64,000 nt of DNA, from the IMG/VR virus record IMGVR_UViG_3300029305_003442; one strand, given 5' to 3'. Numbering within the stretch: the first letter of the stretch is position 1; the number at the start of each line of letters is the position of its first letter. The notes beneath the pieces were generated by a model. It did no database searches. It was not told the DNA's origin and saw only the letters and a program-made list of their open reading frames with translations. The position numbers were made by a program, and so were the translations under genes. Positions 24,852 through 55,253 of the stretch are shown here, piece by piece. The DNA comes from a virus.

Positions 24852-26210
24852 ATGTTACAAGATAGAGAAACAATTATTTTATATACTACAGCAGTATGTA
24901 ATTTAAATTGTACTTATTGTTTTATTGATAAAAATCCAAGTTTAAAAAAGATAGATCAATGGCTTGATGATAGTTTTTTAAAAACTCCAGATTATTATTT
25001 TGAATATGCAAAAAAAGCCGTTTTACAAGAAAAACTAAAAGAAGTATAGATTTGGGGTGGAGAACCTTTTTTGGGTATGCATAGAGCCTATGCAACAATA
25101 GATAAATTTATTAATTATTTTCCAAATTTAAAAAATTTTATGACTTCTACAAATTTTGTATCTCATTGTTTTTTTGAAGAATTTTATGGACTTCTTGATA
25201 TTTTTAGAAAGCATCCAAATAGAAATTTTACATATAGTTTATAGTTATCATTAGATGGTGTAAAGGAAATAAATGATATTAATAGAGGTAATGGAGTTAC
25301 TGATCGTTTTATTATTAATTTTGAAAAATTTGTTAAAGAATTACAAACTTTATTACCAAACAATTTAACATTAAAAATGCATTTAAAGCCCACTATTGAT
25401 ACAAATTCTTTGAAAAAATTATAGACTAAAGAACAAGTTTTTGAACAATTTATCTTTTTTGAAAGCTTCAATGAAGTATATTTGAAATATAATAAAAAAA
25501 ATAATTTACTATTTTCACTTCCAATTCCTAATACAGCTTGCCCATCTCCTCATACTCAAGAAGATGGAATAATGTTTGCAAATTATTGTAAAATAACAAG
25601 AGAGCTTGAAAAAGAAAATAAAAATAATAAAATTTTTAAATTTTATAATAATATTACAAGCTTTACTCCAAGAAGAAAAATTCAATATGACAAACTTTCA
25701 TTATCAGGATATTGTCAAGGTCATTGTGGTAATGGAAAAAGAGCTATTGGTCTTTTACCTAACAATATGGTTTCTTGTTGTCATAATGGTTTTGTTGATT
25801 TGCTAGCTGAATATAAAAAGAATGTATTAACAAATAGTGAACATATGGATAATGTTACTATTGAAAAAAGTTTATTTAAAAATAAACGTAATACTTTAAT
25901 TTTCCCTTATGATAGTAAAGAATTTGAAATGTATCAAAAACAATTAGAAGTTTTTTATCAAAATGATGATACTGCCAAAATTTCTAATTGTGCTTCTTTA
26001 ATTAAATTATTGGCTGATTTTGAACAAATTGATAAAAAATATCAAGATAAAAAAGAAGCTGTTAAAGGTGCTTATTTTATTTTTAATACTACATCATATT
26101 GTGTTAGAGATAATTTAGGTGTGACTGGAAGCATCTATATGTATCCTGTTGGTTTAATTAAATTATTGCTAAATGGAGCTAGAGAATATATTGAGGAAGG
26201 ATGTAATTAA
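24852..26210 (+). CDS. Radical SAM / SPASM-domain enzyme #1 (452 aa, 3 in-frame TAG)
   Basis: AAAGGAG SD; CNLNCTYC (CxxxCxxC) at residues 16-23; IWGGEPFL; SLDGVKEINDINRG (anSME-like). C-terminal Cys cluster CPSPH...CQGHCGNGKRAIGLLPNNMVSCCHNGF consistent with SPASM/twitch auxiliary cluster. Track ORFs 24852-25049 and 25482-26210 share frame 3. Confidence 0.75.
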
Positions 26211-27599
26211 ATGGCAAAGTGTTTAAATTTTTAGGAAGAAAAAGATGTTATTTTATGGTCATTAATTAATGATACATTTGGAAGACTTTTTTCTAAAGAA
26301 AAAAAAGAAGATATTGAACATGATATGGGGTTAGAAATTTATATAACCCCTGAATGTAATTAGAATTGTTCTTATTGTTATTTATGTAAAAATGGTGATG
26401 AACTTTATCCTAAAGAATTAAGAAATCCTACAATAATTTTAAATAATTTAAAAATTATGTTAGATTATTGTATTGATAATAATTGGAATCCTGGAAGATT
26501 TGATTTTTTTTCTGGAGAAATTTGGGATACTGATTTAGGTTATAATGTTTTAAGCATTACAGAAGAAGCAATAGAAAGAGGTTTTCACCCTAGACTAATT
26601 GTAATTCCATCAAATTTTAGTTTTATTTTAAATGAAGAAGCTAAAAATAGAGTTGAAAAATTTATGGAAAAATGTAGACAATTTAATATAAAGCCATGTT
26701 GGTCTTGTTCTAATGATGGTTTATTGTTAGATTTAGAGACAAGACCATTTAATTCAGATGAATTAAATGCAAAAAAAGATACTGAAGATTATTATAAAAA
26801 ATTATTTGAATTTTGTAAAAAATGGAATTTAGGTTTTCATCCAATGGTGGCAGCACACGGAATTGAAAAATGGTCAGAAAATTTTTTATGGTGGATGTCA
26901 GAATTAAAGAAATATAAATTTGAAAGAAATTCTTCAATAATGTTTTTAGAAGTTAGAAACGATGATTGGACAGATGATAAAATTTATCATTATTTAAAAT
27001 ATTTAAATACTAGTATTAATTATTTAAATGATGAATGTATTAATTTAAATACATTGTCTTTTGAAGATTATGTTAGAAAAACTAATAAAAATATTAAATA
27101 CAATTATACACCTGTTATTTTAGAAAAATCAAGTTTATAGCCTGGATGCACTATTCATAGATCTTTAGTTATTCGTTTAGGTGATTTAGCAATAGTTCCT
27201 TGTCATAGAACTTCTTATGAAGAATTTATTATAGGACATTTTAAAGTAGAGAATAATAAAATTATAGGAGTTACAGCTAAAAATATTCAAATAATGAATT
27301 AGGTATGGCTAAATAATATGAGTGGTAATGCTAAATGCACTAATTGTCCTTATAGCAATTACTGTATGAAAGGATGTTATGGTTCTTAGTTTGAATCTAC
27401 TGGAGAATTATTATATCCAATAGAATCAGTATGCAATTTATATAAAGCAAGAGCAATATTTATTTTTTATAAATATTTAAAAATGGGTATTTATAGAGAA
27501 GATAATCCCGAGGATAAAAAATATTTTGATTTTATTCAATCAATTAAAGATACGAAGGAGTTTAAAAAATGGTACAAAATTGTTTAGGAATTGATTTAA
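26211..27599 (+). CDS. Radical SAM / SPASM-domain enzyme #2 (462 aa, 4-5 in-frame TAG)
   Basis: ATG immediately after upstream TAA (translational coupling); ITPECN(Q)NCSYCY CxxxCxxC; C-terminal CTIHRSLVIRLGDLAIVPCH...AKCTNCPYSNYCMKGCYG SPASM-like Cys motifs; frame 3 with track ORF 26457-27140; TAA 27597-27599 if TAG 27585 is read through. Confidence 0.7.
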
Positions 27600-28168
27600 T
27601 TAATATTTATGAAAATCTTATCATAAATGGATTAAATGTAGAATTAGCAAAAGATATTGAAAAATATTTGATTTATTTTTTAGACAATAACACTAATGAA
27701 AATTAGTTATTATTATATAATTTATTAAATATTTTAAAACGTCAATAGAATACATCAATTCTTCTAAATTTTTTAATTCAAGAAGTTGAATTAAAGTTAT
27801 TAAGATTAAGTTTTTCTAATAATGATATAAAAAATAATAAAGATTGTTATAATATTTCATCTTGTCAAAAAAATGAATCTAAAGAAGAATTAAAGAAAAT
27901 TTTAAAAGTAACTAATAAAGATTTATTCCCTCCAAAAGGGACTACAACTCGTATTATTAATAAAAGAAAAGAAGAAAATGAAGAACATGAATATGTTTTA
28001 GAGATAGATGATCAAGGTAATGTTTTAGAAATTTTAGAACATTATATAACAAAAAATGATGCAGATTCTATTGATATATTAAATGATTCTCCTTTAAGCA
28101 AACTTAAAGAAAAATATCTTAAAGAAGATAAAGAAAATAATTCTTTAACAGAAAATGATTTAGAATAA
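27569..28168 (+). CDS. Hypothetical helical protein (199 aa, 2 TAG) within rSAM cassette
   Basis: AAGGAG SD 27555-27560; ATG 27569; frame 2 to TAA 28166-28168. Confidence 0.45.
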
Positions 28169-28193
28169 TATTAATAATTTAAATATTTCTAAA

Positions 28194-29270
28194 ATGGGAT
28201 TAGGAATTATGCGTCATAATTCTAATCAACAATATACAAAACAACTAATAGAATATGCTTTAAATAATAAAATTAATTATTTTGAAGCTTGTGATTTCTA
28301 TTTACAAAACGCTTGTGAAATACGTCTTGGGGATGCTTTAAAATAGCATCCTCGGACTTCATATAAATTATGTGATAAACTTCCATTATCTACAATTCCT
28401 TATTTTATTCAAAAAAATAAAAATTGGAATTTAAATGATTATTTTAATAATCAATTAGCAAAATGTAGAACTGATTATTTTGATGTTTATTTGATTTAGG
28501 CTTTAGATGAACGTAATTTTAATTACTTGGAAAAATATCAAATTATTGATTTCTTTTTAAAACAAAAAGAACAAGGAAAAATTAAATTATTGGGTTTTTC
28601 TTTTCATGGAAAAGTTGATATTTTAAAAAAATTATTAGAAATGAAATGTTGGGATATCGTTTAGTTTCAATTAAATTATTATGATTGGATTTTAGGTGAG
28701 GCGAAAGAATTATATTTTTTAACAAAAGAATATGATTTACCTATTATTACAATGGGACCAACTAAAGGCGGATTATTAATAAATAATTTACCTAAAAAAT
28801 CATTAGATAGATTAAAAGAAAACAATATTAATCCAGTCTATTTATGTTATTCTTTTTTAGAAACTTTAGACAACGTTAAAATTATTTTATCAGGAGCAGA
28901 AACTTATGAAATGATTAAAGATAATTTAAATTATTTTGAAAATGAATCTCATAAATTAACTCCAGAAGAGTGGTAGCATATTAAACAAAATATTCAAGAT
29001 TATCAAGAATAGAGTTTAATTCAATGTACGGGATGTCGTTATTGTGTTCAAAGATGTCCTGCTAATTTACCAATAGATAAAATTTTTAAAGAATATAATA
29101 ATTTTATTCAATCTAAAGATTTATAGTCAAGAGAATTTTTATATTAGAATATTCATAGTTCTAACTCTACACAGAATTGTAAAAATTGTGGTCAATGTGT
29201 AAAAATTTGTCCGCAACATTTAAATATTCCAGAAATTTTTCATAAACAAATTTTCCCAGTAAGGAGATGA
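28194..29270 (+). CDS. Aldo/keto-reductase-family oxidoreductase fused to C-terminal 2x[4Fe-4S] ferredoxin domain (358 aa, 8 TAG)
   Basis: ATG 28194 in frame 3 with track ORF 28752-28976; C-terminal CTGCRYCVQRCP and CKNCGQCVKICP ferredoxin motifs; TGA 29268-29270. Confidence 0.6.
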
Positions 29271-29274: not shown

Positions 29275-29685
29275 ATGGTAGTATCTGAATTAGTAGCTAC
29301 AATTTTTCAAGTTTGTATAATTCCATTATTGGGTGTATTAACTACTTTTTTTGTAAAATGGGTTAATTCCAAAAGCGCAGAAATCTCAAATAAAATTGAT
29401 GATGAAACATTAAATAAATATTTAAATATGCTTACTGAAACAATTAATACTTGCGTTTTAGCAACCAATTAGACATATGTTGAAAGTTTAAAACAACAAG
29501 GAAAGTTTGATGCGGAAGCGCAGAAAGAAGCATTTAATTTAACTTGTTCAGCAGTAATGGATATTTTAAGTGAGGACGCAAAAGAATATTTAACTTCTGC
29601 TATTGGAGATTTACAAATTTATATTACAAAGAAAATTGAAGCTGAAGTACATACAAATAAAGTTACACCTTGTGTAAATCAATAA
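29275..29685 (+). CDS. Putative holin (136 aa; N-terminal TM helix then amphipathic region), LL-H/phiLC3-holin-like
   Basis: AAGGAG SD; MVVSELVATIFQVCIIPLLGVLTTFFVKW TM segment; one in-frame TAG 29470-29472; TAA 29683-29685; last gene before terminator. Confidence 0.5.
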
Positions 29686-29695
29686 AATAAATATA

Positions 29696-29735
29696 GGGGA
29701 ACCTTTAGTATAATCTAAAGGTTCCCCTTATTTTT
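29696..29735. terminator. Bidirectional rho-independent terminator between convergent holin (+) and LytTR regulator (-) genes
   Basis: GGGGAACCTTT-agtataatct-AAAGGTTCCCC with T-runs on both sides (TTATTTTT on +; TATATTTATTTT on -). Confidence 0.6.
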
Positions 29736-29742: not shown

Positions 29743-30447
29743 TTAAATTCTATTATAAGTAAGCCAACGTTCACGAATTAAATCATGAGATTTTTTGGGA
29801 AAATATAATACTTCATCATTTTCAAAAGTTAAATGGTCAGTATCAATAATCTTAATTTCACTTAAATTAATCAATAAACTTGGTGCTAAAAATAAAAATT
29901 GCGGATGTTGGTTCAATGGAGTTATTGCTTTTTCAAAAGATGAGCGCAATGACTAACCATCAAACATTGTTCCATTTTTTAAATGATAACATAAACAACG
30001 TTTTACAATGTTAATATAATTAACTTGACTTGAGCGTATTCTTCTTTCACCTTCCGCAGTTTTAATTACCAAACTATCTTCTCTTATCTCTTTTTTAATT
30101 ATATTAAATAATTCAAACAATTCTTCTTTTTCTATTGGTTTTAAAAAATAATGATCTGCATGCACTTTATAAGCAGGATAAGCGAGAGAAGGATCTTCTC
30201 CAATAAAAATAAAATAACTATTTGGGTCTATTTTATCCATGCGATGACTTAACTCATATAGATTTTCTGATGAATCAGTGTCCATAATATAAACATCAAA
30301 ACTTGCAGGAACAACAAGTAAATCTTCTGATTTATCAAAAATTGATACTTTTGCCACAGACTTAGATTCTATTAAATATTCTTGAATCATCTCACGCAAT
30401 TCATTTAAATATGTTTTGTTGTCATCATAAATAGCAATAGAGAGCAT
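29743..30447 (-). CDS. LytTR-family two-component response regulator (REC + LytTR DNA-binding domain; AgrA/ComE-like), orphan; one in-frame TAG at 29953-29955
   Basis: Track ORFs 29953-30447 and 29743-29949 are the same frame separated by TAG+1 codon; REC features (IAIYDDN, VYIMDTD, YFLKP) and LytTR pattern (IKTAEGERRIRSSQVNYINIVKRCLCYHLKNGT...FLFLAPSLLINLSEI); AAGGAGG SD. Confidence 0.7.
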
Positions 30448-30482
30448 ATTTAAACTCCTCCTTTAAAATTTTTTACAATATT

Positions 30483-30511
30483 ATTATAACATAAATTTGT
30501 GAGAAAATCAA
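30483..30511 (-). promoter_or_regulatory. Consensus sigma-A promoter for LytTR regulator gene (member of repeated promoter family)
   Basis: Minus strand TTGATT-17-TATAAT (fwd aatcaa 30506-30511 ... attata 30483-30488). Confidence 0.5.
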
Positions 30512-30759
30512 ATTTTTTTGTGTAAAAAGTGTAAAAAATTTTAATTTTTGAGTATTTGATTTTTAAATTTACTTTTTGACATTCGGATTTTAAAAATAAA
30601 ATTGTAATTTTGAAAAATTGAATAAAAATTGTAAGGATGAAAAATCAGACAAAAAATGTGTGAGTGTTTCTTGTTTAAAAATCTGAAACAATTTTTATAT
30701 AGTAATGGAAGGGTAAGAGAAAAATAAAAAAAATGAATAAATACCTTGGAGGTGAATAT

Positions 30760-31236
30760 ATGAATTATCAATATAATCAGTAGCAGGTGAGTCCACCGCA
30801 GAATTAGACGACTCAGCAGTATTCTTACCAACGACAAGTTCCTTATACTTCTGGAACTTGGAATGCGAGAGTCAGACCGGTTTCTTCAATTGAAGAAGTA
30901 AGAGCATCTTCAATTGATTTTGATGGCTCAATTTTTTATTTCCCAGATGTTGCTAATAAAAAAATCTATACTAAATTTATTAATTTAGATGGCTCTGTGG
31001 CAATTAATGTATATGAGTTAAAAGAAATGCCAACAGGTTAGGCAGCAGATTCATCTTACATTACAAGAGAAGAATTTGAAAACGTAATTATGTAGTTAAA
31101 AATGATGTATAATAATTCTTCTGCGCCTTCTACTCCAATAGAAGAATAGCAATAGGTATAGTAGTAGATGAATAGTAATTAGTTTGCGGCACCACCCGCA
31201 CAATAGCAACATAATGTTTCGCCATTACAATTTTAA
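30760..31236 (+). CDS. Gln-rich protein (158 aa, 11 TAG codons clustered in poly-Q tracts)
   Basis: GGAGGTG SD; ATG 30760; frame 1 verified to TAA 31234-31236; GAA-TAG-CAA-TAG-GTA-TAG-TAG-TAG-ATG and CAA-TAG-CAA runs. Confidence 0.55.
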
Positions 31237-31249
31237 GGAGGTATGAAGA

Positions 31250-31495
31250 ATGGCACAAGTTGATCCGAGACAATTAATAGCTATGATTAGAAATGGTCAA
31301 AATCCTCAACAACTTATGTTAAGTGTTTTAGAGACGATGCAAGATACTCCTTTTGGAGCCAATTTATTGAATCTCGCTCGCAATGGTTAGACTGCGGAGA
31401 TTGAAAAAATTGCTCGGAATATCACATCTCAAAGAGGTATGGATTATGATAAAGAGTTTAATGCCTTTAAACAATAGTTTTTTGGCTTTAAATAA
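31250..31495 (+). CDS. Small hypothetical protein (81 aa, 2 TAG)
   Basis: GGAGGT SD; ATG 31250; TAA 31493-31495. Confidence 0.45.
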
Positions 31496-31532
31496 ATAAA
31501 ATATTTTTTTTAATTAAAGGAGGGTTTCTTTT

Positions 31533-32327
31533 ATGTTTAATTCTAATGGTTACAGTTTGGCAGATATCGTTGCCGCAACAGGTGGCGGTAGAGAGAATTG
31601 CGGCGGCTTCGGCGGCTGGGGCGGAGATGGATGGTGGATTATCCTCTTATTCTTGCTCTGGGGTAACAACGGCTGGGGCGGCAATCAAGGTGGACGTGGA
31701 ACAGTTCGTGAAGAAATTGCTTATGGTTTTGATATGAACGGTTTAGAAAATAGCGTCCGTGGTGTTCAGCAAGGTATTTGTGATGGTTTCTATGCCATGA
31801 ATACTGGTATGTTAAATGGATTTAGTAACATTCAAAATACTCTATGTCAAGGTTTCTCTGGTATCAATCAAGGTACAGCTCAGTAGACATTTGATTTATC
31901 TACTCAGTTACATGGTATGGCAGCTGATAATGCGGCTTGTTGCTGCGAAACTCAGCGCGCTATTGAAAGAGGATTTGCTGAAACCAACTATAACATGGCA
32001 ACTCAAGCTTGCGATACTCGTAGAGCAATTGCTGATAGCACTCGTGATATTATTGACAGTAATAACGCAGGTGTTCGTTCTATTTTAGATTTCTTAACTC
32101 AGGATAAGATTGCTACTCTTACCGCAGAAAATCAGAGTCTAAAATTCGCAGCTTCTCAGGCAGCTCAGAACGCTTTCATTGCAGCTAATCAGGAAGCTCA
32201 AACCGCAGAACTTATTCGCAGACTTGATACCCCATGTCCTATTCCCGCTTATGTAGTTCCTAATCCTAATTGTTGCTATCCATCTTATGGATATGGGTAT
32301 GGCAACACTGGATGCTGCGGTGGTTAA
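31533..32327 (+). CDS. Gly/Trp-rich membrane protein with Cys-rich C-terminus (264 aa; GGFGGWGGDGWWIILLFLLWGNNGWGG ... CCYPSYGYGYGNTGCCGG); GC-rich codon usage
   Basis: AAAGGAGGG SD; track ORFs 31533-31886 and 31917-32327 same frame joined by one TAG. Confidence 0.55.
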
Positions 32328-32352
32328 TTAACAAAGGAGGTAAAAAATCTGT

Positions 32353-32772
32353 ATGGAAATTATTGCTAATGCTTTATAGACAGTTCCAGCAAATCAGACT
32401 GTTTATTTCACAGATACCGCCGTATGCGGTGGCCCATCTATGACTCATAGAGCTGGTAGTGGTTTAATTACTCTTAGAGGAATTACTAATCAATGTAGAG
32501 CAAGATTCCGCATCACTTTTGGAGCAAATATTGCTGTTCCAACAGGAGAAACAGTTGGACCAATTTCATTGGCTATTGCGATAGAGGGTGAACCTCTTCA
32601 AGCTACTATAATGATTGAAACACCAGCGGCTGTTGAAGAGTTCTCAAATGTTTCAAGAACTACCTTTATTGATGTTCCTCGTGGATGTTGTGTAAGTGTA
32701 AGTGTAAGAAATGTAAGTGATATTCCAGTAAATGTACAAAACGCAAACTTAATTGTTGAACGTGTTGCTTAA
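32353..32772 (+). CDS. C1q/TNF-like jelly-roll protein resembling BclA C-terminal / spore-appendage (DUF3992-like) domains (139 aa, 1 TAG)
   Basis: AAAGGAGG SD; ATG 32353 in frame with track ORF 32440-32772; alternating beta-strand pattern, CC pair near C-terminus (PRGCCVSVSVRNVS). Confidence 0.45.
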
Positions 32773-32790
32773 TGAAAGGAGGTCTTATAA

Positions 32791-33438
32791 ATGGAGAAAA
32801 GATTAGAACATATGAAAGAATCTTTAATGGCTTGCGTTGAAAGTCAATTAACTCATTTAGATACAGTTGATACTAAAGAATTAGGTGAAGCCATTGATAT
32901 GATTAAAGACCTTGAAGAAGCAATCTATTATTGTACTATTACAAAAGCAATGAAGGAACAGGATAAAGGAGAAAAAGAATCTCATAAATATTATCCAGTA
33001 ATGTATAATAGAGATATGGATAGAGATATGGGAAAAATGTATTATGAAAACCCAAATTATATGGGTGGTAATGATACAAAACGTCAATATTCATCTGGAA
33101 ATGGAGGAGGCAACTCCTCCTCCATGAGTAATTCTTCTGGAAGCGGAGGAGGTAATTCATCCTCTGGAAATACTGGTTCAAAACAATATAGTGAAACAGA
33201 ATATAATTTAATGCGCGACCAGCGTGAAGGACGTAGTCCTCAGTCGCGCCGCATGTATATGGAATCAAAAGAAATGCATTCAGATAAAGCAACTCAAATG
33301 CGTGAATTAGAAACTTATATGCAAGAGTTAACTCAAGATGTAGTTGAAATGGTTGAAGGTGCAACTGTTGAAGAAAAGCAGTATTTAAGTAAACGAGTAG
33401 CAGCTCTTGCAAACAAATTGGCTCAATTAAATGATTAA
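32791..33438 (+). CDS. Hypothetical protein (215 aa) with central Gly/Ser/Asn-rich linker; no TAG
   Basis: AAAGGAGG SD; track ORF. Confidence 0.5.
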   Translation: MEKRLEHMKESLMACVESQLTHLDTVDTKELGEAIDMIKDLEEAIYYCTITKAMKEQDKGEKESHKYYPVMYNRDMDRDMGKMYYENPNYMGGNDTKRQYSSGNGGGNSSSMSNSSGSGGGNSSSGNTGSKQYSETEYNLMRDQREGRSPQSRRMYMESKEMHSDKATQMRELETYMQELTQDVVEMVEGATVEEKQYLSKRVAALANKLAQLND

Positions 33439-33694
33439 CATTAATGGTGAACAATGGAGAGTGTTTTTAACCTCTCCATTTCACCCTGCTTTAAAACGCA
33501 GTGATGGTGCTTATACTCTAGGATGCTGTGATGATGTAACAAAAACAATTTATATAAGTAATGATGTAAGTGATAAATATTTAAAAAAAGTTTTATGCCA
33601 CGAACTCACTCACGCCGCAATGTTTAGCTACAACGTAGATTTGACTTATGAGCAAGAGGAAGTTCTCGCTGATATTATAGCAACATATGGATAG
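33431..33694 (+). CDS. Small HExxH metallopeptidase-like protein (87 aa; HELTHA), ImmA/IrrE- or SprT-like
   Basis: Track ORF; overlaps upstream stop; CHELTHAAMF motif. Confidence 0.45.
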   Translation: MININGEQWRVFLTSPFHPALKRSDGAYTLGCCDDVTKTIYISNDVSDKYLKKVLCHELTHAAMFSYNVDLTYEQEEVLADIIATYG

Positions 33695-33763
33695 GAAATT
33701 ATTCATATGGCAAATCTTCTCTTTAAGAGGTTAAAAGATGAAAGAGAAGAAGAAAGAAAAAAT

Positions 33764-33800
33764 GGGAGTATCTAATAATTTAGATACTCCCATTTTTTTT
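33764..33800 (+). terminator. Rho-independent terminator ending the + strand island
   Basis: GGGAGTATCTA-ataatt-TAGATACTCCC followed by TTTTTTTT. Confidence 0.6.
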
Positions 33801-33801: not shown

Positions 33802-34239
33802 TTATATATTACAATCTCGTACTTCTAACTTCATCGCACTTTCATAATAATTTTTAGCTTGACCATTGCCGCCCAAAGAAGTATATAATTTATAAAATTC
33901 AGTTAATTGGTCATACTAGTCGGGAGTCATAAATCCTTGTCTAATAAATCCTTTGCATAATTGAACTAAACGGAAACGATAAGAAGAAATAATTAAATTC
34001 ATGTGATTCTTTTCTACTTGACCCACATTATAGATATAAGACCTTAATTCTTCAAGCTCCTATTGAATTGGTTCAATTTTACTGTCAATTGTTTCATTCA
34101 ATTTGTCAGTCTCTTGGTCTGCTAAAAGCTTTTTATAATTTTTCATTTGACTATGCATATATTTACAAAAAGCTAAAGCACCAGCAGAAATTAAACCAAA
34201 AATAATTTCAATGAAATGTTCAGTTAAAAAAGCTAACAT
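33802..34239 (-). CDS. Small membrane protein with N-terminal TM helix and coiled coil (145 aa, 2 TAG); BhlA/UviB/XhlA-like lysis-accessory candidate (low confidence)
   Basis: ATG 34239 (SD AAAGGGGA); frame verified to TAA 33802-33804; 438 nt = 146 codons. Confidence 0.4.
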
Positions 34240-34305: not shown

Positions 34306-34797
34306 TTATTCAGACCAATCAAATGATTTTGCCTAAGAGTTTAGATACCAGTGACCAATACATATTGCGTCACTTTCATCTTCTGTAGCTTGTTTATTAT
34401 AAAGCGTTTTTATTAATAACTAAGCTTCTTTTTTCTACTCTGGACGAGTTCTACTTTTTATACCGATTTTACTTTTCCATACTGTAGCTAATACAGCTTC
34501 AACTGGTATATCTAATTCTACAATCAATTCATAAATAACACCAAATACTTCTGCTAATGTTTTAAAGGTTTGAACATTTCCTGTTACATTAGATTGAAGT
34601 TGTATATCTTCCATTATAACTTTATTAATAGAATAAGTATCAATTAATTGATGAACATTTTTTCTAATATTAAGCAATCTATCTCCTAAATCGGATTGAT
34701 TACAAGTAAAATGTCCATAATCAATTAATTGATTATCTTCAAATATAGCATATCCAGTTATTTTAGAAGACTAATCTAAAGATAAGATTCTGCTCAT
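34306..34797 (-). CDS. RuvC-like Holliday-junction resolvase (163 aa) with 4 in-frame TAG
   Basis: MSRILSLD(Q)SSKITGYAIFE N-terminus and DAICIGHWYL C-terminal motif; ATGA overlap with dut stop; track ORF 34435-34677 is its middle. Confidence 0.6.
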
Positions 34798-35489
34798 ACT
34801 GATTCAAAAACATCTGCTTTTAATCCAAGAGAATTAAAAACATCAAGTAATTTTTCATCAATTTTAATTTCGTTATTTAAATTAATTGATTGTAAAGAAG
34901 TAGAACCAAATCCGCCTGTTCGTAAGCCAATAGCTACATCATCTTCAATGGTATAATAAGGTTTAATAATTCCTTGACCAATAATATCTCCTCGTTTTAA
35001 TTGAATATCAAATGGAGATAAATTAATTAATTGAAAGAAAATTTCACCTTCATTATCAGGATTATTATAATAATCAGCGTCAATAATACCAACTCCATTA
35101 GCAAGAATAAGCCAATATTTTAAAGGAGTAGAAGACCGCACGCTTAATTCAAGATAAGTATTTGGAAGTAATTCACATTTCATTCCAGTAGAAACTAAAG
35201 AAGGTTTAATTTTTGATGCTTTAGTAACAGCGGCAACATCTTCAAGAGTATAAGGTTTACTCATCTTTTGCGCAAGCTCATATTCAGCCTTCTTCTTTTC
35301 TTCTGAGTCAATTACATTCTAATGTAATTGGAATAGTTCATATCTACCAAGCCAATTCAATTCTTCAGAACAAGATGGAATTATAATATCTTCAGCTACA
35401 ACAAAATCATATCCAGCGCTCTGTTCTGTTTTTCTAATTGGTAAAGGTAAATCAATATCATTAAATCTACTTACTTTTTCAAATTTCAT
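34794..35489 (-). CDS. dut: dUTPase with extended N-terminal region (231 codons, 1 in-frame TAG at 35319-35321)
   Basis: Motif 1 SAGYDF in upstream segment (ATG 35489), then GIIDADYYNNPDNEGEI, GDIIGQGII, RTGGFGSTS in track ORF 34794-35264; both segments same frame. Confidence 0.7.
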
Positions 35490-35734
35490 TATTCTACCTC
35501 ATAATTAATATTAACAAAACTTATCGGGTCTTTTTCATCATTGAAATGTTTGTTTAAAGTAACTTTATACCAACTATCAATAACTGCACCTTTAGATTTT
35601 CTTTCTTTAAATTCACTAGAATATTTTGCTAATGAAAATTCAGTAGCATTCTTAGCTTCATCAATAATTTCTTTTACTTCATTTTCATTATCTACTCTAT
35701 ATACTTCAATTGTACTTACAAGATATTTTGACAT
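35489..35734 (-). CDS. Hypothetical protein (81 aa)
   Basis: Track ORF; TAATG overlap with dut start. Confidence 0.45.
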   Translation of the reverse strand: MSKYLVSTIEVYRVDNENEVKEIIDEAKNATEFSLAKYSSEFKERKSKGAVIDSWYKVTLNKHFNDEKDPISFVNINYEVE

Positions 35735-35735
35735 T

Positions 35736-35996
35736 TTAATTTACCTCAATATTAATTTTTTTAGTATTATAATTTTTTACATTATACATTTGAATATCTT
35801 CAATAAAACCTTCAAGATATCCTTCATTACCATATAGGTGAATATTGTATATATCATATGTATAACAACTACTAACAATTACTTCTGCTAAATTATCAAT
35901 AGTTGTTGAAGCTATTTCTCGCTTACCATTATCATCATAAATAAATATATACTAATCAGTATTAAATAAATTAACTGAACTAACAATATAACTCAT
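35736..35996 (-). CDS. Hypothetical protein (86 aa, 1 TAG)
   Basis: ATG 35996 adjacent to upstream TAA; verified 87 codons to TAA 35736-35738. Confidence 0.4.
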
Positions 35997-35997
35997 T

Positions 35998-36396
35998 TTA
36001 TCCTCCATATGAAACCATTAAACCTTCACAATCAAATAAGCACATACATAAATTTTCATCTTCATTTGTCCGCACCCAAATTTCAATTGTATCAGAAGCT
36101 TCCATATAATCAACAGTAATAATCTTACCAATATCTAAAGCGCAAGTAAGAACTGCTTTTCCTTTATTTTCAAAATCCGATTCGTTTGCTTTTGGATAGA
36201 AAATAGTATAATAAGAAATTTCTTTACATAAAAGCATTAAATTTGAATAATTTTTCATTTTATCATTAATTAATTCAATATAAGGGTCTATATTATCTGC
36301 TATTGGAAGCTATGAAACAATAGATTTATTTAAATCATATAGATTCATAGAAATATTTCCATAATCTTTAGATTCTTTTTTTAAATTACACTTCAT
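35998..36396 (-). CDS. Hypothetical protein (132 aa, 1 TAG at 36310-36312)
   Basis: ATG 36396 with AAAGGAGA SD; in frame with track ORF 35998-36258. Confidence 0.45.
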
Positions 36397-36426
36397 TATT
36401 TATCTCCTTTTTTATTTTATATAATA

Positions 36427-36455
36427 ATTATATCATATTTTTTTATTTTTGTCAA
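36427..36455 (-). promoter_or_regulatory. Perfect consensus promoter TTGACA-17-TATAAT on minus strand (overlaps nrdG stop)
   Basis: fwd tgtcaa 36450-36455, attata 36427-36432. Confidence 0.55.
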
Positions 36456-36915
36456 GATAAATAATACGTTGATTGCGGCTTCCTCTCATAGGAAGTGTAA
36501 TGTCTCTTTCAGCTTCAATATAAGGTCCATCAATTAAACAAGTAATTAATTCTAAAATTTCTTTTATATTTGGATTATGAGGTAAATCATCGTAAGTATA
36601 CCCTGTCCATAAATAAATTTCTGTATCTGGTAATTTTTCTTTAACAGTTTTTATTACCAATAAAGTCAAAAAAGTATTTTCAGGACATAAAGGTTCTCCA
36701 CCCAAAATACTTAAAGAACGCTTAATACCATTAGCTTGAAGAGCTTCAATTATTTCATTAATTACATCAGTAGTAAATTCTAGTCCTCCGTCATAATCCC
36801 AAGTTTCGGGATTATGACAGCCAAGACAATGATGCGGACATCCTTGAGTATAGAAAGAAACTGATACACCAGTTGCCGCAGAAAAATCATTTTTAATTAA
36901 ACCTGCATATCGCAT
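36433..36915 (-). CDS. nrdG: Anaerobic ribonucleotide reductase activating protein (radical SAM)
   Basis: GCPHHCLGCHNPETW CxxxCxxC motif; 160 aa. Confidence 0.8.
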   Translation of the reverse strand: MRYAGLIKNDFSAATGVSVSFYTQGCPHHCLGCHNPETWDYDGGLEFTTDVINEIIEALQANGIKRSLSILGGEPLCPENTFLTLLVIKTVKEKLPDTEIYLWTGYTYDDLPHNPNIKEILELITCLIDGPYIEAERDITLPMRGSRNQRIIYLDKNKKI

Positions 36916-37544
36916 TATTCTTCCTCCTCTAAGTCTAAATCATGAACATCATCTGGATTAGCTACTTCGTAATAAAATATACATCTACAACTGGGATGAT
37001 ATGGTGGGAGATTAACATCTTCATCTGGCGGATATTCTCCGCCTTCACACATATCACATCCACTTTCAATTACTAATAAAGTAGCATTAATAGGTCTTTT
37101 ATTTTTCTTTACTGCATTTTCTACATTTTTAGTTTCTGTATTTAAAATTCTTTCAAATTTATAAACTAAATTATCTCTTATTTCTTTATAAGTTTTTTCT
37201 TTTAAAATATCTTGTCTTGTCTCTTCCCAAATTAAAGACAATCTATCTTGAATTGTTTTTCCATCTTCTTTATAAGTTAAATCAAAGATATTTTTGATAT
37301 TAAATTCTTCTACTTCTTCATATAATTTTTCTATATATTTACTTGTAATAAGATATGTTTCAGTTAATGATTCATAAAATAAATCTTCAATTTTTTTATA
37401 TGCTTTATCCCAAAGTTTAATATTAAAATTATTTGAATATTCTCTGACAGCTTTTAAAGATTTATTTATAATTTTTTCAAAATATTTATCTTTAGATTCG
37501 TCAATTAAATCTTCTAATTTAAGTATTTCTTTTCTGATACTCAT
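36915..37544 (-). CDS. Hypothetical protein (209 aa) inserted between nrdD and nrdG; C-terminal CxxC...HPSCRC zinc-binding motif reminiscent of Mu F/SPP1 gp7 C-terminus
   Basis: Track ORF; GCDMCEGGEYPPDEDVNLPPYHPSCRCIFY. Confidence 0.45.
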   Translation of the reverse strand: MSIRKEILKLEDLIDESKDKYFEKIINKSLKAVREYSNNFNIKLWDKAYKKIEDLFYESLTETYLITSKYIEKLYEEVEEFNIKNIFDLTYKEDGKTIQDRLSLIWEETRQDILKEKTYKEIRDNLVYKFERILNTETKNVENAVKKNKRPINATLLVIESGCDMCEGGEYPPDEDVNLPPYHPSCRCIFYYEVANPDDVHDLDLEEEE

Positions 37545-37549
37545 AACAA

Positions 37550-39841
37550 TTATCCATGTTTAACCCTTCGCTCTACCTCATCTTGTTTACCAAGGTTAAA
37601 AGCAGTTTTATAATTACCAGTTAAATAACCAGTAACTCTACGCAATTGTTGAATTTCTTTACTTCCGCATTCTGGACATTCATCATTAAATTCATCAGTA
37701 TATCCGCATTTAAGACAAGTATCATTTGGAACATTTACTGCGAAATAAGGAATATCTTTATCCATAGCATAATTTACTAAAATTTCTAATGCCTCAAGAT
37801 TATTTTTAATTCCACTATCCAATTCAACATAAGTAATACATCCAGCAGAAGAATAACAGGTTAATTGAGATTCAATATCAATTTTTTCAAATGGAGACAT
37901 CTCTATCCACACAGGTACATGCATAGAATTAGTAAAGAATTCTTTATCGGAAACATTCTCAATTACACCATATTTATCTTTAAATTTCTTTAAAGCAGTA
38001 TGACATAGGTTTTCCGCAGGTGAATAATAAACACCAAAATTTAATTTATATTCATTTTTAAATTGAGCACAACGAGTTTTAAACAATTCTTCAATTCGTT
38101 TTGCTAATTCCATTCCTTCTGGAGTAGTATGATTTTTTCCAATAAGAATTTGAAGCGTTTCAGCAAGACCTAATTGTCCAAGAGCAAGGGTACCATGCTT
38201 AAGAGCGGAACGTATTCCTTCTTCTGGAATATATCCTGCCATAAGTCCATTTTCATACATAAACTTAGCAGAATCAGGAGATTGACTACAAATCCATTCA
38301 AATCTTTCAATAAGCATATCTTTAGCATCATATATTGCTTTATCAAGAATTTCCATAAAAATATCTACAAGTTCAGTAGTATATTTATATTTATCTGTAA
38401 ATTGATTTTCCCACTCTTCTTTTGCTTCCATGGCTAATGTAGGAAGAATAATTGTTACAGGACAAATATTACCTCTACCATCTTTGAGTTGACCAAAACC
38501 ATTAATATCCCAACCATTTGCTGTGCGGCATCCCATCGTTGAGAAATAAGTTCTTGGGTCATTAATATCATATCCAGCATTACCAGACCAATCAACATTT
38601 GCGTAATTGGGATATAGTCTTTGAGCGGTTGATTTTAAAGCCAATTGGAATAAATCATAATTGGGGTCTCCAGGTTTACGATTTACACCTTTCATACATT
38701 GAAAGATTCCACAAGGGAAAATAGATGTTTTATGTAAAGCTCCAATACCTTCAATGGATACTTCAAGCAAAGCTTTAGTCACCATTCTACCTTCTGGTAA
38801 AGTACAAGTACCATAATTAATAGAAGTAAATGGCAACTGATTGCCTGAACGAGATTGAAGTGTATTAAGATTATGATACATTCCTTCTACGGCTTGATGT
38901 GTTTCTTTTTTTGTTTCAAATAGAGCTGCTTGACTTAAATATTTATCAAGATTAACAATATTACTAAAAGTGAAATCTTCATATTTAAGATTAAATTCTT
39001 TTAAATATTTTTCTTTATGATTTTCAACCCAATTATCTAATTCTTCATTTGGCATATCCAAAAGAGACAGAGCTAAAAATTCGTCAGTATGTTTTACATA
39101 TTCTAATACATAATGTTTAAAAAATGATTTGCGTATATAAGGCACCATGGTCCAGTCAATATGTGTCGCAGAAACACCACCAAATTGTTGTAAACTTTGT
39201 AATTGGAAAATAACCGCTACAAGCTGAAATGCTGTATTTACAGAACCTGCGGGACGCACATCTGTTTGTCTGGTATTAAATCCTTTAGCAAGCAAATCAT
39301 CAAAAGGAATAGATAAGCAATTATGTGAACCAACATAATAACTATTTAAGTCATGAATATAAATACGATTATTTAAATGATTTTCTCTTGCTTTTGGTGA
39401 TACAATAAAATCTAATGCTAATTGTTTCGTGACCACATCTCCAGCTTCACCTGTGCGGCCTCCAAAAGATGCTTCATCTACATTAGCATTTTGGTTTTGG
39501 ATATTTGTAGCATTTAATTTTTCTTTAACTGCGTCAATAAAATCATTTTCATAATGTCTAGCAACTTCTTTTTTATATCTATAACGAATATATTCTCTTG
39601 CTACATCACTGCGTTCAGAACGCATTAAATATTCTTCAACTTTATCTTGAACTTTTTCAACAGTAAATGGTTTATCTGAATTATGTACAGCATCTTTATA
39701 AATAGCTTCCGCTATATCAGCAGCTGTATCTGTTTCATAAAGTTTTCCATCAACTTCAAGAAAAGCTTTATTTATTGCGGTAATAATTTTACCTTTATTA
39801 AAAGGAACAAGTGTTCCATCTCTTTTATAAATTTGTACCAT
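37550..39841 (-). CDS. nrdD: Anaerobic (class III) ribonucleoside-triphosphate reductase
   Basis: 763 aa; C-terminal glycyl-radical region RRVTGYLTG; Cys-rich zinc ribbon CLKCGYTDEFNDECPECG; no in-frame TAG. Confidence 0.85.
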   Translation of the reverse strand: MVQIYKRDGTLVPFNKGKIITAINKAFLEVDGKLYETDTAADIAEAIYKDAVHNSDKPFTVEKVQDKVEEYLMRSERSDVAREYIRYRYKKEVARHYENDFIDAVKEKLNATNIQNQNANVDEASFGGRTGEAGDVVTKQLALDFIVSPKARENHLNNRIYIHDLNSYYVGSHNCLSIPFDDLLAKGFNTRQTDVRPAGSVNTAFQLVAVIFQLQSLQQFGGVSATHIDWTMVPYIRKSFFKHYVLEYVKHTDEFLALSLLDMPNEELDNWVENHKEKYLKEFNLKYEDFTFSNIVNLDKYLSQAALFETKKETHQAVEGMYHNLNTLQSRSGNQLPFTSINYGTCTLPEGRMVTKALLEVSIEGIGALHKTSIFPCGIFQCMKGVNRKPGDPNYDLFQLALKSTAQRLYPNYANVDWSGNAGYDINDPRTYFSTMGCRTANGWDINGFGQLKDGRGNICPVTIILPTLAMEAKEEWENQFTDKYKYTTELVDIFMEILDKAIYDAKDMLIERFEWICSQSPDSAKFMYENGLMAGYIPEEGIRSALKHGTLALGQLGLAETLQILIGKNHTTPEGMELAKRIEELFKTRCAQFKNEYKLNFGVYYSPAENLCHTALKKFKDKYGVIENVSDKEFFTNSMHVPVWIEMSPFEKIDIESQLTCYSSAGCITYVELDSGIKNNLEALEILVNYAMDKDIPYFAVNVPNDTCLKCGYTDEFNDECPECGSKEIQQLRRVTGYLTGNYKTAFNLGKQDEVERRVKHG

Positions 39842-55233: not shown

Positions 55234-55253
55234 TTTTAATTACCTCCATTTAA

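What the first reader, a model, noticed from the sequence alone, without database searches (positions are those of the whole stretch)
31250..33700. GC-rich cargo island with Gly/Trp/Cys-rich membrane protein and BclA-C/C1q-like jelly-roll protein
GC content jumps from about 27% to about 45-60% over 31250-33450 (for example 31601-31660 is roughly 60% GC by count), with GC-rich codon choice, implying foreign origin. The genes are unusual for a phage: a 264-aa protein with GGFGGWGGDGWW-TM-GNNGWGG and CCYPSYGYGYGNTGCCGG; a 139-aa jelly-roll protein resembling BclA C-terminal / spore-appendage (DUF3992) domains with a CC pair; a Q-rich protein upstream; an HExxH peptidase-like protein. The giant tail protein also carries a CotH-like domain. 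Together these suggest spore-surface or adhesin-like cargo, or mimicry of host spore-surface proteins. Alternatively they could be divergent fibre-tip domains.
Basis: partly seen in the sequence, partly recalled or inferred. Interest (0 to 1): 0.65.

Follow-up and report, generated by a model that had tools for sequence, protein, structure and literature searches.

The report
Conserved phage knob-and-stalk late operon
The GC-rich patch is not foreign cargo but a six-gene late operon native to this stop-codon-recoded phage, whose core (a cysteine-rich helical protein plus a free-standing BclA/C1q-like knob) is very common in gut phages and has no known function.

Summary
The GC rise is real but overstated. 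Positions 31250-33700 are 37.5% GC against 27.7% elsewhere, with a 300-bp peak of 45%. The genes exist as described only if TAG is read as glutamine, which homologues justify.

The block is one operon, gA-gF (30760-33775), bounded by terminators. It is syntenic with its holin and downstream neighbour in about 30 related phages. The gC-gD pair is adjacent in 93 of 94 loci and is GC-richer than its surroundings in almost all of them, whatever the genome GC. About two-thirds of the excess comes from amino-acid composition and one-third from codon choice. Foreign origin is therefore not supported.

The 264-aa protein gC has relatives in Bacteroides, Edwardsiella and T1-like coliphages. Hosts of related phages include non-sporulators, so spore mimicry is unlikely. 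No CotH domain was found.

My favoured mechanism, at low confidence, is a cysteine-locked helical stalk (gC) whose proline/cysteine tail docks on the gD trimer, built late with helper proteins and a small zinc protease.

The parts
29275..29685 (+). Holin-like gene (136 aa). It is the conserved upstream neighbour of the operon.
   Evidence: phrog_13712 'holin', E=1e-31. It precedes gA in 28+ related loci.
29695..29728 (.). Bidirectional intrinsic terminator hairpin after the holin. It marks the upstream boundary.
   Evidence: 14-bp stem with 7 GC pairs and a T-run; inverted repeat I3.
29743..30447 (-). Receiver-domain-like regulator gene (234 aa), divergent from gA. It is a variable insertion at the holin|gA junction.
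   Evidence: Pfam Response_reg is sub-threshold at E=2e-4. phrog_8810, E=2e-20. Outside this phage's own contigs it is present only in L017, L033 and L042. Most relatives have 50-280 bp between holin and gA.
30448..30759 (.). AT-rich intergenic region between the divergent regulator and gA. It is the presumed promoter region of the operon.
   Evidence: Read directly from the sequence. It contains promoter-like hexamers, but no more than chance would give.
30760..31236 (+). gA: 158-aa protein with Gln-rich termini and a small beta-rich central domain. It has 11 in-frame TAG codons.
   Evidence: The family has 818 clusters with no name or Pfam. It is homologous to c1/phrog_21718 of 40-kb temperate phages (hhalign 96%, E=2.8e-9).
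31250..31495 (+). gB: 81-aa helical Gln-rich protein ending in FFGFK. It has 2 TAG codons.
   Evidence: It is syntenic in about 40 loci. There are no family hits.
31533..32327 (+). gC: 264-aa protein. It has a conserved N-terminus, a Gly/Trp-rich segment with a 10-residue hydrophobic core (WWIILLFLLW), about 165 helical residues with 11-residue periodicity (GF every 11 residues), a CCC motif, and a Pro/Cys-rich tail. It has 1 TAG codon.
   Evidence: phrog_16490, E=7e-57. At least 8000 clusters, all unnamed. Helices at 68-115 and 123-232. Periodicity of 3.6-3.67. CCC is conserved in 89-90 of 93 loci. Kyte-Doolittle 19-residue maximum is 1.09.
32353..32772 (+). gD: 139-aa free-standing BclA-CTD/C1q/TNF-type jelly roll with an invariant CC pair at residues 112-113. 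It has 1 TAG codon at codon 9.
32791..33438 (+). gE: 215-aa protein with helical ends and a Gly/Ser/Asn-rich disordered middle. It is a candidate scaffold or assembly factor.
   Evidence: It is syntenic in about 40 loci. Family hits are only weak.
33431..33775 (+). gF: 114-aa HExxH (HELTH) zincin-like protein. Its start overlaps the gE stop. It has 1 TAG codon.
   Evidence: phrog_1233, E=8e-18. Pfam DUF6782, Peptidase_M78 and SprT-like all fall just below their cut-offs.
33755..33800 (.). Bidirectional terminator hairpin where the late (+) and the - strand transcription units converge. It marks the downstream boundary.
   Evidence: 19-20 bp perfect stem plus T-runs.
33802..34239 (-). Conserved convergent neighbour gene (145 aa, phrog_4105/4257, unknown function).
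   Evidence: It lies in the same position and orientation in 21+ related loci.

Best explanation
The GC-rich patch is a native, vertically conserved late operon (gA-gF, 30760-33775) of a TAG->Gln-recoded phage. It sits at the far end of the late (tail-holin) region and is bounded by terminators.

Composition. The GC excess is a by-product of what the operon encodes. About two-thirds comes from amino-acid composition (more Gly, Ala and Arg, fewer Lys and Ile). About one-third comes from a mild GC3 preference shared across the family.

Core. The core trio gA-gC-gD is widespread in gut and rumen Firmicutes phages. Proposed mechanism (inferred, not shown):
1. gC forms an oligomeric, probably trimeric, helical stalk built on 11-residue repeats and stapled by its CCC motif.
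2. gC is anchored through its N-terminal Gly/Trp hydrophobic segment, most likely at the membrane of the infected cell and less likely in a virion socket.
3. The conserved Pro/Cys-rich C-terminal tail of gC (TPCPIPAYVVPNPNCC) docks into the inter-subunit clefts of the trimeric C1q/TNF-type knob gD. This would resemble the way proline-rich exosporium leader peptides dock on ExsF/BxpB. The tail would then be locked through gD's invariant CC pair.
4. gA, gB and gE (low-complexity, helical) act as assembly or scaffold factors. gF, a small zincin, matures one of them.
5. The resulting knob-and-stalk complex acts late in infection as an accessory function in egress, envelope interaction or adhesion, not as the primary receptor-binding protein.
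For: Shown:
- The operon is bounded by terminators at 29695-29728 and 33755-33800.
- The order holin-gA-gB-gC-gD-gE-gF-(g33802 reversed) is conserved in about 30 loci from 60-200 kb phages. gC-gD are adjacent in 93 of 94 loci.
- GC of gC+gD exceeds the rest of the locus in about 90 of 93 loci and tracks genome GC from 0.35 to 0.61.
- Decomposition of the excess gives an amino-acid effect of +0.061 and a codon effect of +0.033. Elevated GC3 of gB, gC and gE is shared across 30 relatives. The same codon effect appears in the Sak4-like and phrog_2367 genes elsewhere in the window.
- The operon holds 16 in-frame TAG codons. Those in gC and gD align with Gln in homologues. This implies long residence in a recoded genome and late expression.
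- gD is always free-standing and its CC pair is invariant.
- gC has long helices, 3.6-3.67 periodicity, a conserved CCC and a nearly invariant P/A/Y/V/P tail.
- gA is homologous to c1 of small temperate phages, where the order c1-x-gC-gD recurs next to the integrase.
- A peptidase recurs in the module: gF here, an HExxH protein in the Bacteroides phage, and in the 40-kb phages the c2 protein, which looked papain-like to me by eye (untested).

Precedent for tail-into-cleft docking: the ExsF/F-Anchor peptide crystal structure, in which a proline-kinked leader lies in the trimer interface cleft (PMC12357932).
Against: - No direct evidence exists that gC and gD interact. No multimer model could be run.
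- The monomer model of gC is poor (pLDDT 52).
- The hydrophobic core is only 10 residues long (Kyte-Doolittle 1.09, below the usual 1.6 for a transmembrane helix), and it is weak in the enterobacterial homologues.
- gD has no signal peptide, so an extracytoplasmic knob would need lysis or holin action to be exposed.
- Disulfide locking is questionable in the cytoplasm and in anoxic habitats. The cysteines could bind metal instead.
- Outside Firmicutes only gC is detectably conserved, so gC can work without gD.
- gB/c7 and gE/c3 equivalence rests on position and composition only (hhalign 12% and 3%).
- The helper roles of gA, gB, gE and gF are pure inference.
Confidence: 0.45

Rival explanations
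1. Virion accessory fibre. gC is a trimeric fibre shaft attached to the tail or head by its conserved N-terminus. gD is its separately encoded knob. Together they bind a conserved ligand such as a cell-wall glycan or a gut mucin glycan.
Against: A conserved Gly/aromatic hydrophobic segment is unusual in a virion fibre. gC and gD are 60-85% identical across phages of very different hosts and GC content, unlike receptor-binding proteins. None of about 60 sampled coliphage records annotates the gene as a virion or structural protein. In the Seuratvirus fusion the gC-like part lies C-terminal to the region that matches the extreme C-termini of tail-fibre families. By my reading of its SDRDLK-type motif, that region is an auto-cleaving intramolecular chaperone, so the gC-like part would be cut off the mature fibre. 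This was not tested. In Bas07 the gene carries an in-frame TAA. In Firmicutes phages a lysis cassette and a terminator separate it from the tail genes.
Confidence: 0.22
2. Membrane-acting late function without a structural role. gC inserts via its glycine-zipper or fusion-peptide-like segment and uses amphipathic 11-residue-repeat helices to act on the cell envelope. It would serve as a lysis or egress accessory, as a holin regulator, or in superinfection exclusion and anti-readsorption. gD would be a co-factor.
For: The operon directly follows the holin in 28+ loci. The N-terminal hydrophobic segment is conserved in position and reaches Kyte-Doolittle 1.73 in the Bacteroides homologue. The 3.67 periodicity is, from general knowledge, typical of membrane-surface amphipathic helices. 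The location at the end of the late operon, and the apparent dispensability in Bas07, fit accessory or exclusion genes.
Against: There is no homology to holins, spanins, Sie proteins or any PADLOC defence family. Most hosts are monoderm, so a spanin-type inner/outer membrane fusion is unnecessary. T1-like phages, from my recollection of the literature and not checked here, already encode a unimolecular spanin. Six co-conserved genes including a C1q-like trimer is elaborate for exclusion. The heavy TAG load means there is no expression before the late phase, which rules out prophage-expressed immunity in this phage.
Confidence: 0.23
3. One reading: a horizontally acquired GC-rich cargo island encoding spore-surface or exosporium-like proteins, or mimics of host spore-surface proteins.
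For: Local GC and GC3 are elevated. The gD fold is closest to the exosporium proteins BclA, F-BclA and BxpB/ExsF. The operon products are rich in Cys and Gln and include a Gly/Tyr-rich tail, which to my eye resembles spore coat or exosporium composition.
Against: The block is syntenic in about 30 related phages, and its GC excess is universal and scales with genome GC. It contains recoded TAG codons. There are no flanking repeats, integrase or tRNA. There are no Pfam or NCBIfam hits to BclA_C, DUF3992, the exosporium leader, GerQ or CotH. gD has no collagen-like stalk. Homologues occur in phages of Butyrivibrio fibrisolvens, Selenomonadaceae, Bacteroides uniformis, Edwardsiella and E. coli, which do not sporulate.
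Confidence: 0.04

Closest known systems
BclA C-terminal domain, F-BclA CTD and BxpB/ExsF (C1q/TNF superfamily proteins of the Bacillus exosporium)
   Different: Sequence identity is only 9-18%. There is no Pfam PF18573 hit, no collagen-like stalk and no exosporium leader. The gene is phage-encoded and occurs in phages of non-sporulating hosts. The invariant CC pair and the partnership with a Cys-rich helical protein are not features of the exosporium proteins.
Phage and predator fibre knobs with a TNF-like fold (cyanophage A-1(L)/A4 tail fibre, PRD1 P5, Sf6 needle knob, lactococcal phage 1358 RBP, Bdellovibrio Bd2439 fibre tip)
   Different: Those knobs are C-terminal domains of long fibre polypeptides and vary with host range. 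gD is always a separate 135-160-aa protein and is unusually conserved (60-84% identity across thousands of variants).
phrog_9288 proteins of T1-like (Drexlerviridae), Seuratvirus and Eiauvirus coliphages, and gene 36 of Bacteroides phage C3_41T2LP. All are of unknown function and are annotated variously as 'putative sugar-binding protein', 'lateral tail fiber chaperone' or 'outer capsid protein/viral fiber'.
   Same: They are homologous to gC: HMM E=1e-13 for eiAU gp08 and 2e-27 for the Bacteroides protein. The architecture matches: a Gly-rich hydrophobic N-terminal segment, a helical region with QGF(A/S)G and CCC(E/D) motifs, and a Pro/Cys-rich tail. They also sit at the distal end of the late operon.
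   Different: The hydrophobic core is shorter or weaker. The downstream partners (phrog_9157, 8329, 7239) show no detectable similarity to gD, gA or gE. They follow the lateral tail fibre gene rather than a holin.
Ena1A/Ena1B endospore appendage subunits (DUF3992)
   Same: They are small jelly-roll proteins with paired cysteines used for inter-subunit cross-links (from general knowledge of the family).
Spanins (Rz-type i-spanin) and class I viral fusion proteins (functional analogy only)
   Same: There is an N-terminal hydrophobic, Gly-rich segment followed by long helices with conserved cysteines. The gene lies next to lysis genes and is expressed late.
   Different: There is no sequence similarity and no lipoprotein partner. 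Periodicity is hendecad rather than heptad. Hosts are mostly monoderm, and the hydrophobic core is too short for a canonical transmembrane helix.

Membership tests
BclA_C (Pfam PF18573) / BclA-type exosporium glycoprotein | Significant match to the family HMM | tested here: not met
   Pfam scan of gD at E<=1 gave no family. A profile of 61 homologues against PDB sequences gave no hit at E<=10.
BclA_C (Pfam PF18573) / BclA-type exosporium glycoprotein | C1q/TNF-like jelly-roll fold | tested here: met
BclA_C (Pfam PF18573) / BclA-type exosporium glycoprotein | N-terminal exosporium leader plus a collagen-like GXY stalk preceding the domain | tested here: not met
   gD is 139 aa and begins directly with beta strands. 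All 150 best representatives of 845 clusters are 83-196 aa. NCBIfam found no exosporium-leader hit.
DUF3992 / Ena endospore appendage subunits | HMM match and Ena-type fold with an N-terminal Cys connector | tested here: not met
   There is no Pfam hit at E<=1. No Ena structure is among the top structural matches.
C1q/TNF structural superfamily | Ten-strand jelly roll superposing on C1q/TNF domains | tested here: met
C1q/TNF structural superfamily | Trimeric assembly | not testable with these tools
   Only monomer prediction was available. The trimer is inferred from the fold.
Horizontally acquired genomic island / moron | Atypical composition relative to the host genome | tested here: met
   GC 0.375 against 0.277, the highest window in the 64 kb. 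However, two-thirds of the excess is explained by amino-acid composition.
Horizontally acquired genomic island / moron | Patchy presence: absent from close relatives at the same junction | tested here: not met
   The same gene order between holin and g33802 is found in about 30 related loci.
Horizontally acquired genomic island / moron | Mobility signatures (flanking direct repeats, integrase or transposase, tRNA) | tested here: not met
   Only short AT-rich chance repeats and terminator hairpins were found. There is no tRNA. None of the six products has a recombinase hit.
Horizontally acquired genomic island / moron | Composition reflects a donor rather than the gene family | tested here: not met
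   The gC+gD GC excess recurs in about 90 of 93 loci and scales with each genome's own GC. The GC3 pattern is shared by 30 relatives.
CotH kinase-like domain (claimed for the giant protein 14218-20370) | Match to Pfam CotH | tested here: not met
   Only LRR_5 (E=1e-13) was found, at both E<=1e-3 and E<=1.
Zincin-type metallopeptidase (gF) | HExxH motif and a family HMM above the cut-off | tested here: inconclusive
   HELTH is present. Pfam DUF6782 scores 24.0 bits against a cut-off of 27, and Peptidase_M78 scores 21.7 against 22. phrog_1233 matches at E=8e-18, and phrog_13742 'peptidase' at E=6e-6.
Two-component spanin (i-spanin-like gC) | Canonical N-terminal transmembrane helix, a periplasmic coiled coil, an outer-membrane lipoprotein partner and a diderm host | tested here: not met
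   The Kyte-Doolittle 19-residue maximum is 1.09. Periodicity is 3.67, not 3.5. No partner with a lipobox was seen when I read the operon proteins. Hosts are mostly Clostridia or Bacilli.
Known anti-phage defence systems | Match to PADLOC models | tested here: not met
   No hits for gA-gF or c2 at E<=0.01.
TAG->Gln recoded phage (genetic code 15) | In-frame TAG codons in long ORFs that align with Gln in homologues | tested here: met

The most novel reading that the evidence does not exclude
The gC family (phrog_16490 and phrog_9288) is conserved from T1-like coliphages and a Bacteroides phage to thousands of gut Firmicutes phages. It may define an unrecognised, phylum-spanning late function of siphophage-like viruses. 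This would be a cysteine-stapled, hendecad-repeat stalk anchored in the infected cell's membrane. In Firmicutes phages it would carry a free-standing C1q/BclA-like trimer. It would act on the envelope at egress, or block readsorption of progeny. On this reading it is a non-virion machine, not a tail part or a moron.
Probability: 0.2. Interest if true: 0.75.

Novelty: new variant of a known kind. Interest (0 to 1): 0.42.

Why it matters
As flagged (foreign, spore-mimicking cargo), the finding does not hold, and that part is ordinary.

What remains is a very abundant and strongly conserved block of phage dark matter. gC and gD each have at least 8000 clusters at 90% identity, with no name, no Pfam family and no paper found. 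The pair keeps a fixed gene order across phages of 28-56% GC.

gC has homologues in genetically tractable T1-like coliphages, including one BASEL phage with a natural nonsense mutation. Its function could therefore be tested directly by knock-out, virion proteomics and topology mapping.

The case is also a caution. In AT-rich recoded phages, a GC 'island' can arise purely from the amino-acid make-up and codon bias of conserved genes.

Tried and rejected
- Family scans. Pfam, NCBIfam and PADLOC scans of all six proteins gave nothing above cut-off. PHROGs gave only 'unknown function' families for gC, gD, gF and their small-phage counterparts.
- PDB sequence search. Profile searches of PDB sequences with the gC and gD alignments gave no hit at E<=10.
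- Structure of gC. The AF2 monomer model is too poor (pLDDT 52) for fold search. The afdb50 library was unavailable.
- Second GC-rich patch. I looked for a capsid or scaffold identity for 54244-56186. It is a Sak4-like annealase plus phrog_2367.
- Links between module versions. HMM and hhalign comparisons tried to connect gB, gE and gF to c7, c3 and c5 of small phages, and to the partners of gC-like genes in Bacteroides, Edwardsiella and T1-like phages. Only gA=c1 was supported.
- Flanking repeats. Only chance-level AT-rich matches were found. One is an 18-nt 17/18 repeat at 29269 and 33756, which I estimated to be near chance expectation.
- Promoter scan. It was not above shuffled expectation.
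- Literature. Searches on BclA/C1q in prophages, CAjan virion proteomics, Ceridwen, and Drexlerviridae tail-fibre chaperones found no study of these genes.
- Endolysin. No endolysin could be identified in the window, so the relation of the operon to the lysis enzyme remains open.
Full report

The window averages 27-28% GC. The flagged stretch 31250-33700 is 37.5% GC. It lies within the GC-richest 2.45-kb stretch of the whole 64 kb (maximum 0.377 at 31101; all windows mean 0.281, sd 0.029). The 60-nt example (31601-31660) is exactly 60% GC. However, 300-bp windows peak at 0.45 and most lie between 0.33 and 0.43. The jump is therefore real but about half as large as stated. A second patch of similar GC (54244-56186, 0.39) exists on the other strand.

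**2. The genes can only be read with TAG as a sense codon.**

A standard-code ORF list breaks the '264-aa' protein into 117 and 136 aa and truncates the '139-aa' protein to 110 aa. Reading TAG as Gln gives long uninterrupted ORFs across the + strand, for example 1439 aa with 23 TAGs and 2050 aa with 25 TAGs.

- TAG makes up 130 of 321 Gln codons in the + strand late genes but only 25 of 304 in the - strand replication genes.
- The TAG at codon 9 of the 139-aa protein falls on an invariant Gln in 61 homologues. Ten related loci carry a stop at the same codon.
- The TAG in the 264-aa protein aligns with Gln in its nearest relatives.
- A public 71-kb contig of the same phage was independently called with products of 158, 81, 264, 139, 215 and 114 aa.
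- No tRNA lies in the window.

**3. Anatomy.**

Six co-oriented genes form one unit:

| Gene | Coordinates | Length | Description |
|---|---|---|---|
| gA | 30760-31236 | 158 aa | Gln-rich ends, 11 TAGs |
| gB | 31250-31495 | 81 aa | helical, Gln-rich |
| gC | 31533-32327 | 264 aa | see section 7 |
| gD | 32353-32772 | 139 aa | see section 6 |
| gE | 32791-33438 | 215 aa | helical ends, Gly/Ser/Asn-rich middle |
| gF | 33431-33775 | 114 aa | HELTH motif; start overlaps the gE stop |

. A strong bidirectional terminator follows the upstream holin-like gene (29695-29728). Another closes the unit (33755-33800), where the + and - strand transcription units converge. Between the holin and gA lies a divergently oriented receiver-domain-like gene (29743-30447). 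It is present in only a minority of relatives.

**4. The block is native, not foreign.**

The 264-aa and 139-aa proteins match PHROGs of unknown function at E=7e-57 and 5e-58. Each has at least 8000 clusters at 90% identity in public data, none named.

- In 94 loci fetched from GenBank phages, MAGs and IMG/VR, gC and gD are adjacent in 93.
- The full order holin-gA-gB-gC-gD-gE-gF-(convergent g33802) recurs in about 30 loci from 60-200 kb phages, many of them also TAG-recoded.
- In 40-kb temperate phages the order is c2-c1-c7-gC-gD-c3-c5 followed by the integrase. c1 is homologous to gA (hhalign 96%, E=2.8e-9).
- No flanking repeats, recombinase or tRNA mark the block.

**5. Why it is GC-rich.**

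The GC of gC+gD exceeds the rest of the locus in about 90 of 93 loci. It moves with the genome, from 0.35 in 29%-GC phages to 0.61 in 56%-GC phages.

In this window the six genes are 0.373 GC against 0.279 for the other genes. Recoding their amino-acid sequences with the background codon usage already gives 0.340. The amino-acid make-up therefore explains +0.061: Gly 8.1 vs 5.6%, Ala 8.1 vs 5.1%, Arg 4.9 vs 2.9%, Lys 3.7 vs 7.7%, Ile 5.9 vs 9.0%. Codon choice explains +0.033.

The codon component is largest in gC (+0.062). It is matched by the Sak4-like annealase, phrog_2367 and two small genes elsewhere in the window. Higher GC3 in gB, gC and gE than in holin or g33802 is shared by 30 relatives. 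This is a property of the gene family (constraint, and perhaps expression level), not a donor signature.

**6. The 139-aa protein gD.**

With a 61-sequence alignment, AlphaFold2 gives pLDDT 87 and pTM 0.80, with all-beta structure.

- Foldseek against the PDB ranks F-BclA CTD (9h38), BxpB (8d02), BclA CTD (1wck) and ExsFA (7r1m) first, with TM 0.67-0.78.
- In BFVD the best matches are free-standing 135-142-aa proteins of uncultured gut phages, some already labelled 'BclA protein'.

There is no sequence-level membership. Pfam and NCBIfam find nothing at E<=1, and a profile search of PDB sequences finds nothing at E<=10. The family has 845 clusters at 50% identity, and the 150 best are all 83-196 aa, so gD is never the tip of a long polypeptide. 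The Cys112-Cys113 pair is invariant in 94 of 94 loci.

**7. The 264-aa protein gC.**

Conserved features are:

- an N-terminal MFN..GYSL(S/A)DIAAVTG segment;
- a Gly/Trp/Asn-rich segment around a 10-residue hydrophobic core;
- an invariant run of GF every 11 residues (85/86, 96/97, 107/108);
- a CCC motif, conserved in 89-90 of 93 loci;
- the block ILDFLTQDKIATLTAENQSLKFAASQ;
- a TPCPxPAYVVPNPNCCY tail followed by a variable Cys-containing end.

The monomer model is poor (pLDDT 52) but predicts helices at 68-115 and 123-232. Hydrophobicity is periodic at 3.6-3.67 residues, not 3.5. None of 2000 shuffles reached the observed value for 68-115, and 0.15% did for 123-175. The best 19-residue Kyte-Doolittle mean is 1.09 (family range 0.77-1.43), below the usual threshold for a membrane helix. 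The label 'membrane protein' is therefore plausible but not established.

**8. The gC family reaches beyond Firmicutes.**

- Gene 36 of Bacteroides phage C3_41T2LP is a full-length homologue (HMM E=2e-27). It has a longer hydrophobic core (Kyte-Doolittle 1.73). It is followed by a 180-aa protein with a C-terminal CC, a small Arg/Asp/Tyr-rich protein and an HExxH peptidase.
- Edwardsiella phage eiAU gp08 (E=1e-13) and phrog_9288 of T1-like, Seuratvirus, Sashavirus and PY100-type coliphages share the Gly-rich N-terminus, the QGF(A/S)G and CCC(E/D) motifs and a Pro/Cys tail. They lie directly after the lateral tail fibre gene at the end of the late operon.
- In Seuratvirus KurtStettler the domain is fused in frame after a tail-fibre C-terminal region. 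That region matches the extreme C-termini of many tail-fibre PHROGs and carries an SDRDLK-type motif, which I take to be an intramolecular-chaperone autocleavage site. That reading was not tested.
- In BASEL phage JakobBernoulli the gene is split by an in-frame TAA where homologues have Gln.

The partners of gC in these phages show no detectable similarity to gA, gD or gE.

**9. What this excludes.**

- *Spore-surface cargo or mimicry is unlikely.* The pair is carried by a phage isolated on non-sporulating Butyrivibrio fibrisolvens and occurs in Selenomonadaceae contigs. gC relatives occur in phages of Bacteroides and Enterobacterales.
- *A primary receptor-binding tip is unlikely.* gD is free-standing and is 53-84% identical across the fetched phage loci (39-49% in the most distant MAG loci), across phages of very different hosts.
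- *Known defence systems do not match*.
- *The CotH claim for the 2050-aa protein fails.* Only BspA-type leucine-rich repeats are found.

**10. Most likely mechanism (inference).**

The recurring pair consists of a helical, Cys-rich protein with a conserved proline-kinked tail and a free-standing C1q-type trimer. This parallels the way exosporium fibres attach. In the ExsF/F-Anchor crystal structure, a proline-rich leader peptide lies in the clefts between ExsF subunits (PMC12357932).

I propose the following:

- gC oligomerises into a stalk stapled at the CCC ring.
- Its tail docks on the gD trimer and is locked through the invariant CC pair, by disulfide or by metal.
- gA, gB and gE assist assembly, and gF matures a component.
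- The heavy TAG load places expression in the late phase.

Where the complex sits is unresolved. The conserved hydrophobic segment, the hendecad amphipathic helices, the position after the holin, the lack of any 'structural' annotation in about 60 coliphage records and the nonsense allele in Bas07 all favour a cell-envelope-associated accessory role. The fibre-knob fold and the tail-fibre adjacency or fusion in coliphages favour an accessory virion fibre. My estimates are:

| Claim | Probability |
|---|---|
| The block is native and conserved | about 0.9 |
| gC and gD form a knob-and-stalk complex | about 0.5 |
| Location: membrane-anchored | about 0.35-0.4 |
| Location: virion-borne | about 0.2-0.25 |

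**11. Novelty and verdict.**

The flagged 'foreign spore-like cargo island' is not supported. What is there is an uncharacterised but extremely common phage module. All its families are listed as unknown function, and I found no paper about it. The knob fold is a known kind. The free-standing, CC-bearing knob paired with a Cys-rich hendecad protein is a new variant. Interest is moderate. The main value is that the gC family is testable in T1-like coliphages.

Noticed in passing
whole window; e.g. 43-4362, 14218-20370, 30760-31236: The phage uses TAG as a Gln codon (genetic code 15). TAG makes up 40% of Gln codons in the + strand late genes but 8% in the - strand replication genes. No suppressor tRNA lies in the window. 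Many relatives carrying the same operon also appear to be recoded.
   Followed up: partly
23652-29270 (+): A cassette sits between the tail genes and the holin. It has a 389-aa Cys/Ser/Thr-rich low-complexity protein; a radical SAM ORF (24852-26210, PF04055); a second ORF with a Cys-rich CxxxCxxC-type motif and no Pfam hit (26211-27599); a 199-aa ORF; and an aldo-keto reductase fused to a 4Fe-4S dicluster domain (28155-29270). It may be a peptide- or virion-modification cassette.
   Followed up: no
29743-30447 (-): A receiver-domain-like gene (weak PF00072 hit, phrog_8810) is inserted between the holin and gA and is divergent from the operon. Outside this phage's own contigs it is found in only 3 of the related loci. 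Most relatives have a gap of 50-280 bp here.
   Followed up: partly
54244-56186 (-), also 58815-59084 and 47417-47776: A second GC-rich patch encodes a Sak4-like ssDNA annealing protein and a phrog_2367 protein. Their GC3 and CAG usage are elevated to the same degree as in gC. Codon-level GC enrichment is therefore not unique to the flagged region.
   Followed up: partly
14218-20370 (+): The 2050-aa tail-region protein has BspA-type leucine-rich repeats (LRR_5, E=1e-13) near its C-terminus and no CotH domain. It is a candidate host-recognition protein.
   Followed up: partly
L097 (Escherichia phage JakobBernoulli) 4827-5531; L098 (KurtStettler) 3981-5513: In the T1-like BASEL phage Bas07, the gC-like gene (phrog_9288) is annotated as two ORFs because of an in-frame TAA where homologues have Gln. 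In Seuratvirus Bas22 the same domain is fused to the C-terminal region of a tail-fibre-like protein, which I took to be an intramolecular-chaperone-type region.
   Followed up: partly
34306-43102 (-): The replication and nucleotide-metabolism arm encodes RuvC, a dUTPase-like protein, the anaerobic ribonucleotide reductase NrdD with its radical SAM activase, guanylate kinase and a PolIII-alpha-type polymerase. This is consistent with a strictly anaerobic host and a virulent lifestyle. No integrase was seen.
   Followed up: no
whole window: No recognisable endolysin was found next to the holin-like gene or among the ORFs scanned. These were most, but not all, of the + strand ORFs and only some of the - strand ORFs. 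The window does not coincide with the 71-kb public contig, so the enzyme may lie outside it.
   Followed up: partly
L084 7679-8410 and other 40-kb phage loci: In small temperate phages the module is preceded by a sigma-70 region-4-like small protein (phrog_3512/1190) and by a 125-aa protein of unknown function (phrog_3754) that looked papain-like to me. A peptidase of some kind thus recurs with the module.
   Followed up: partly
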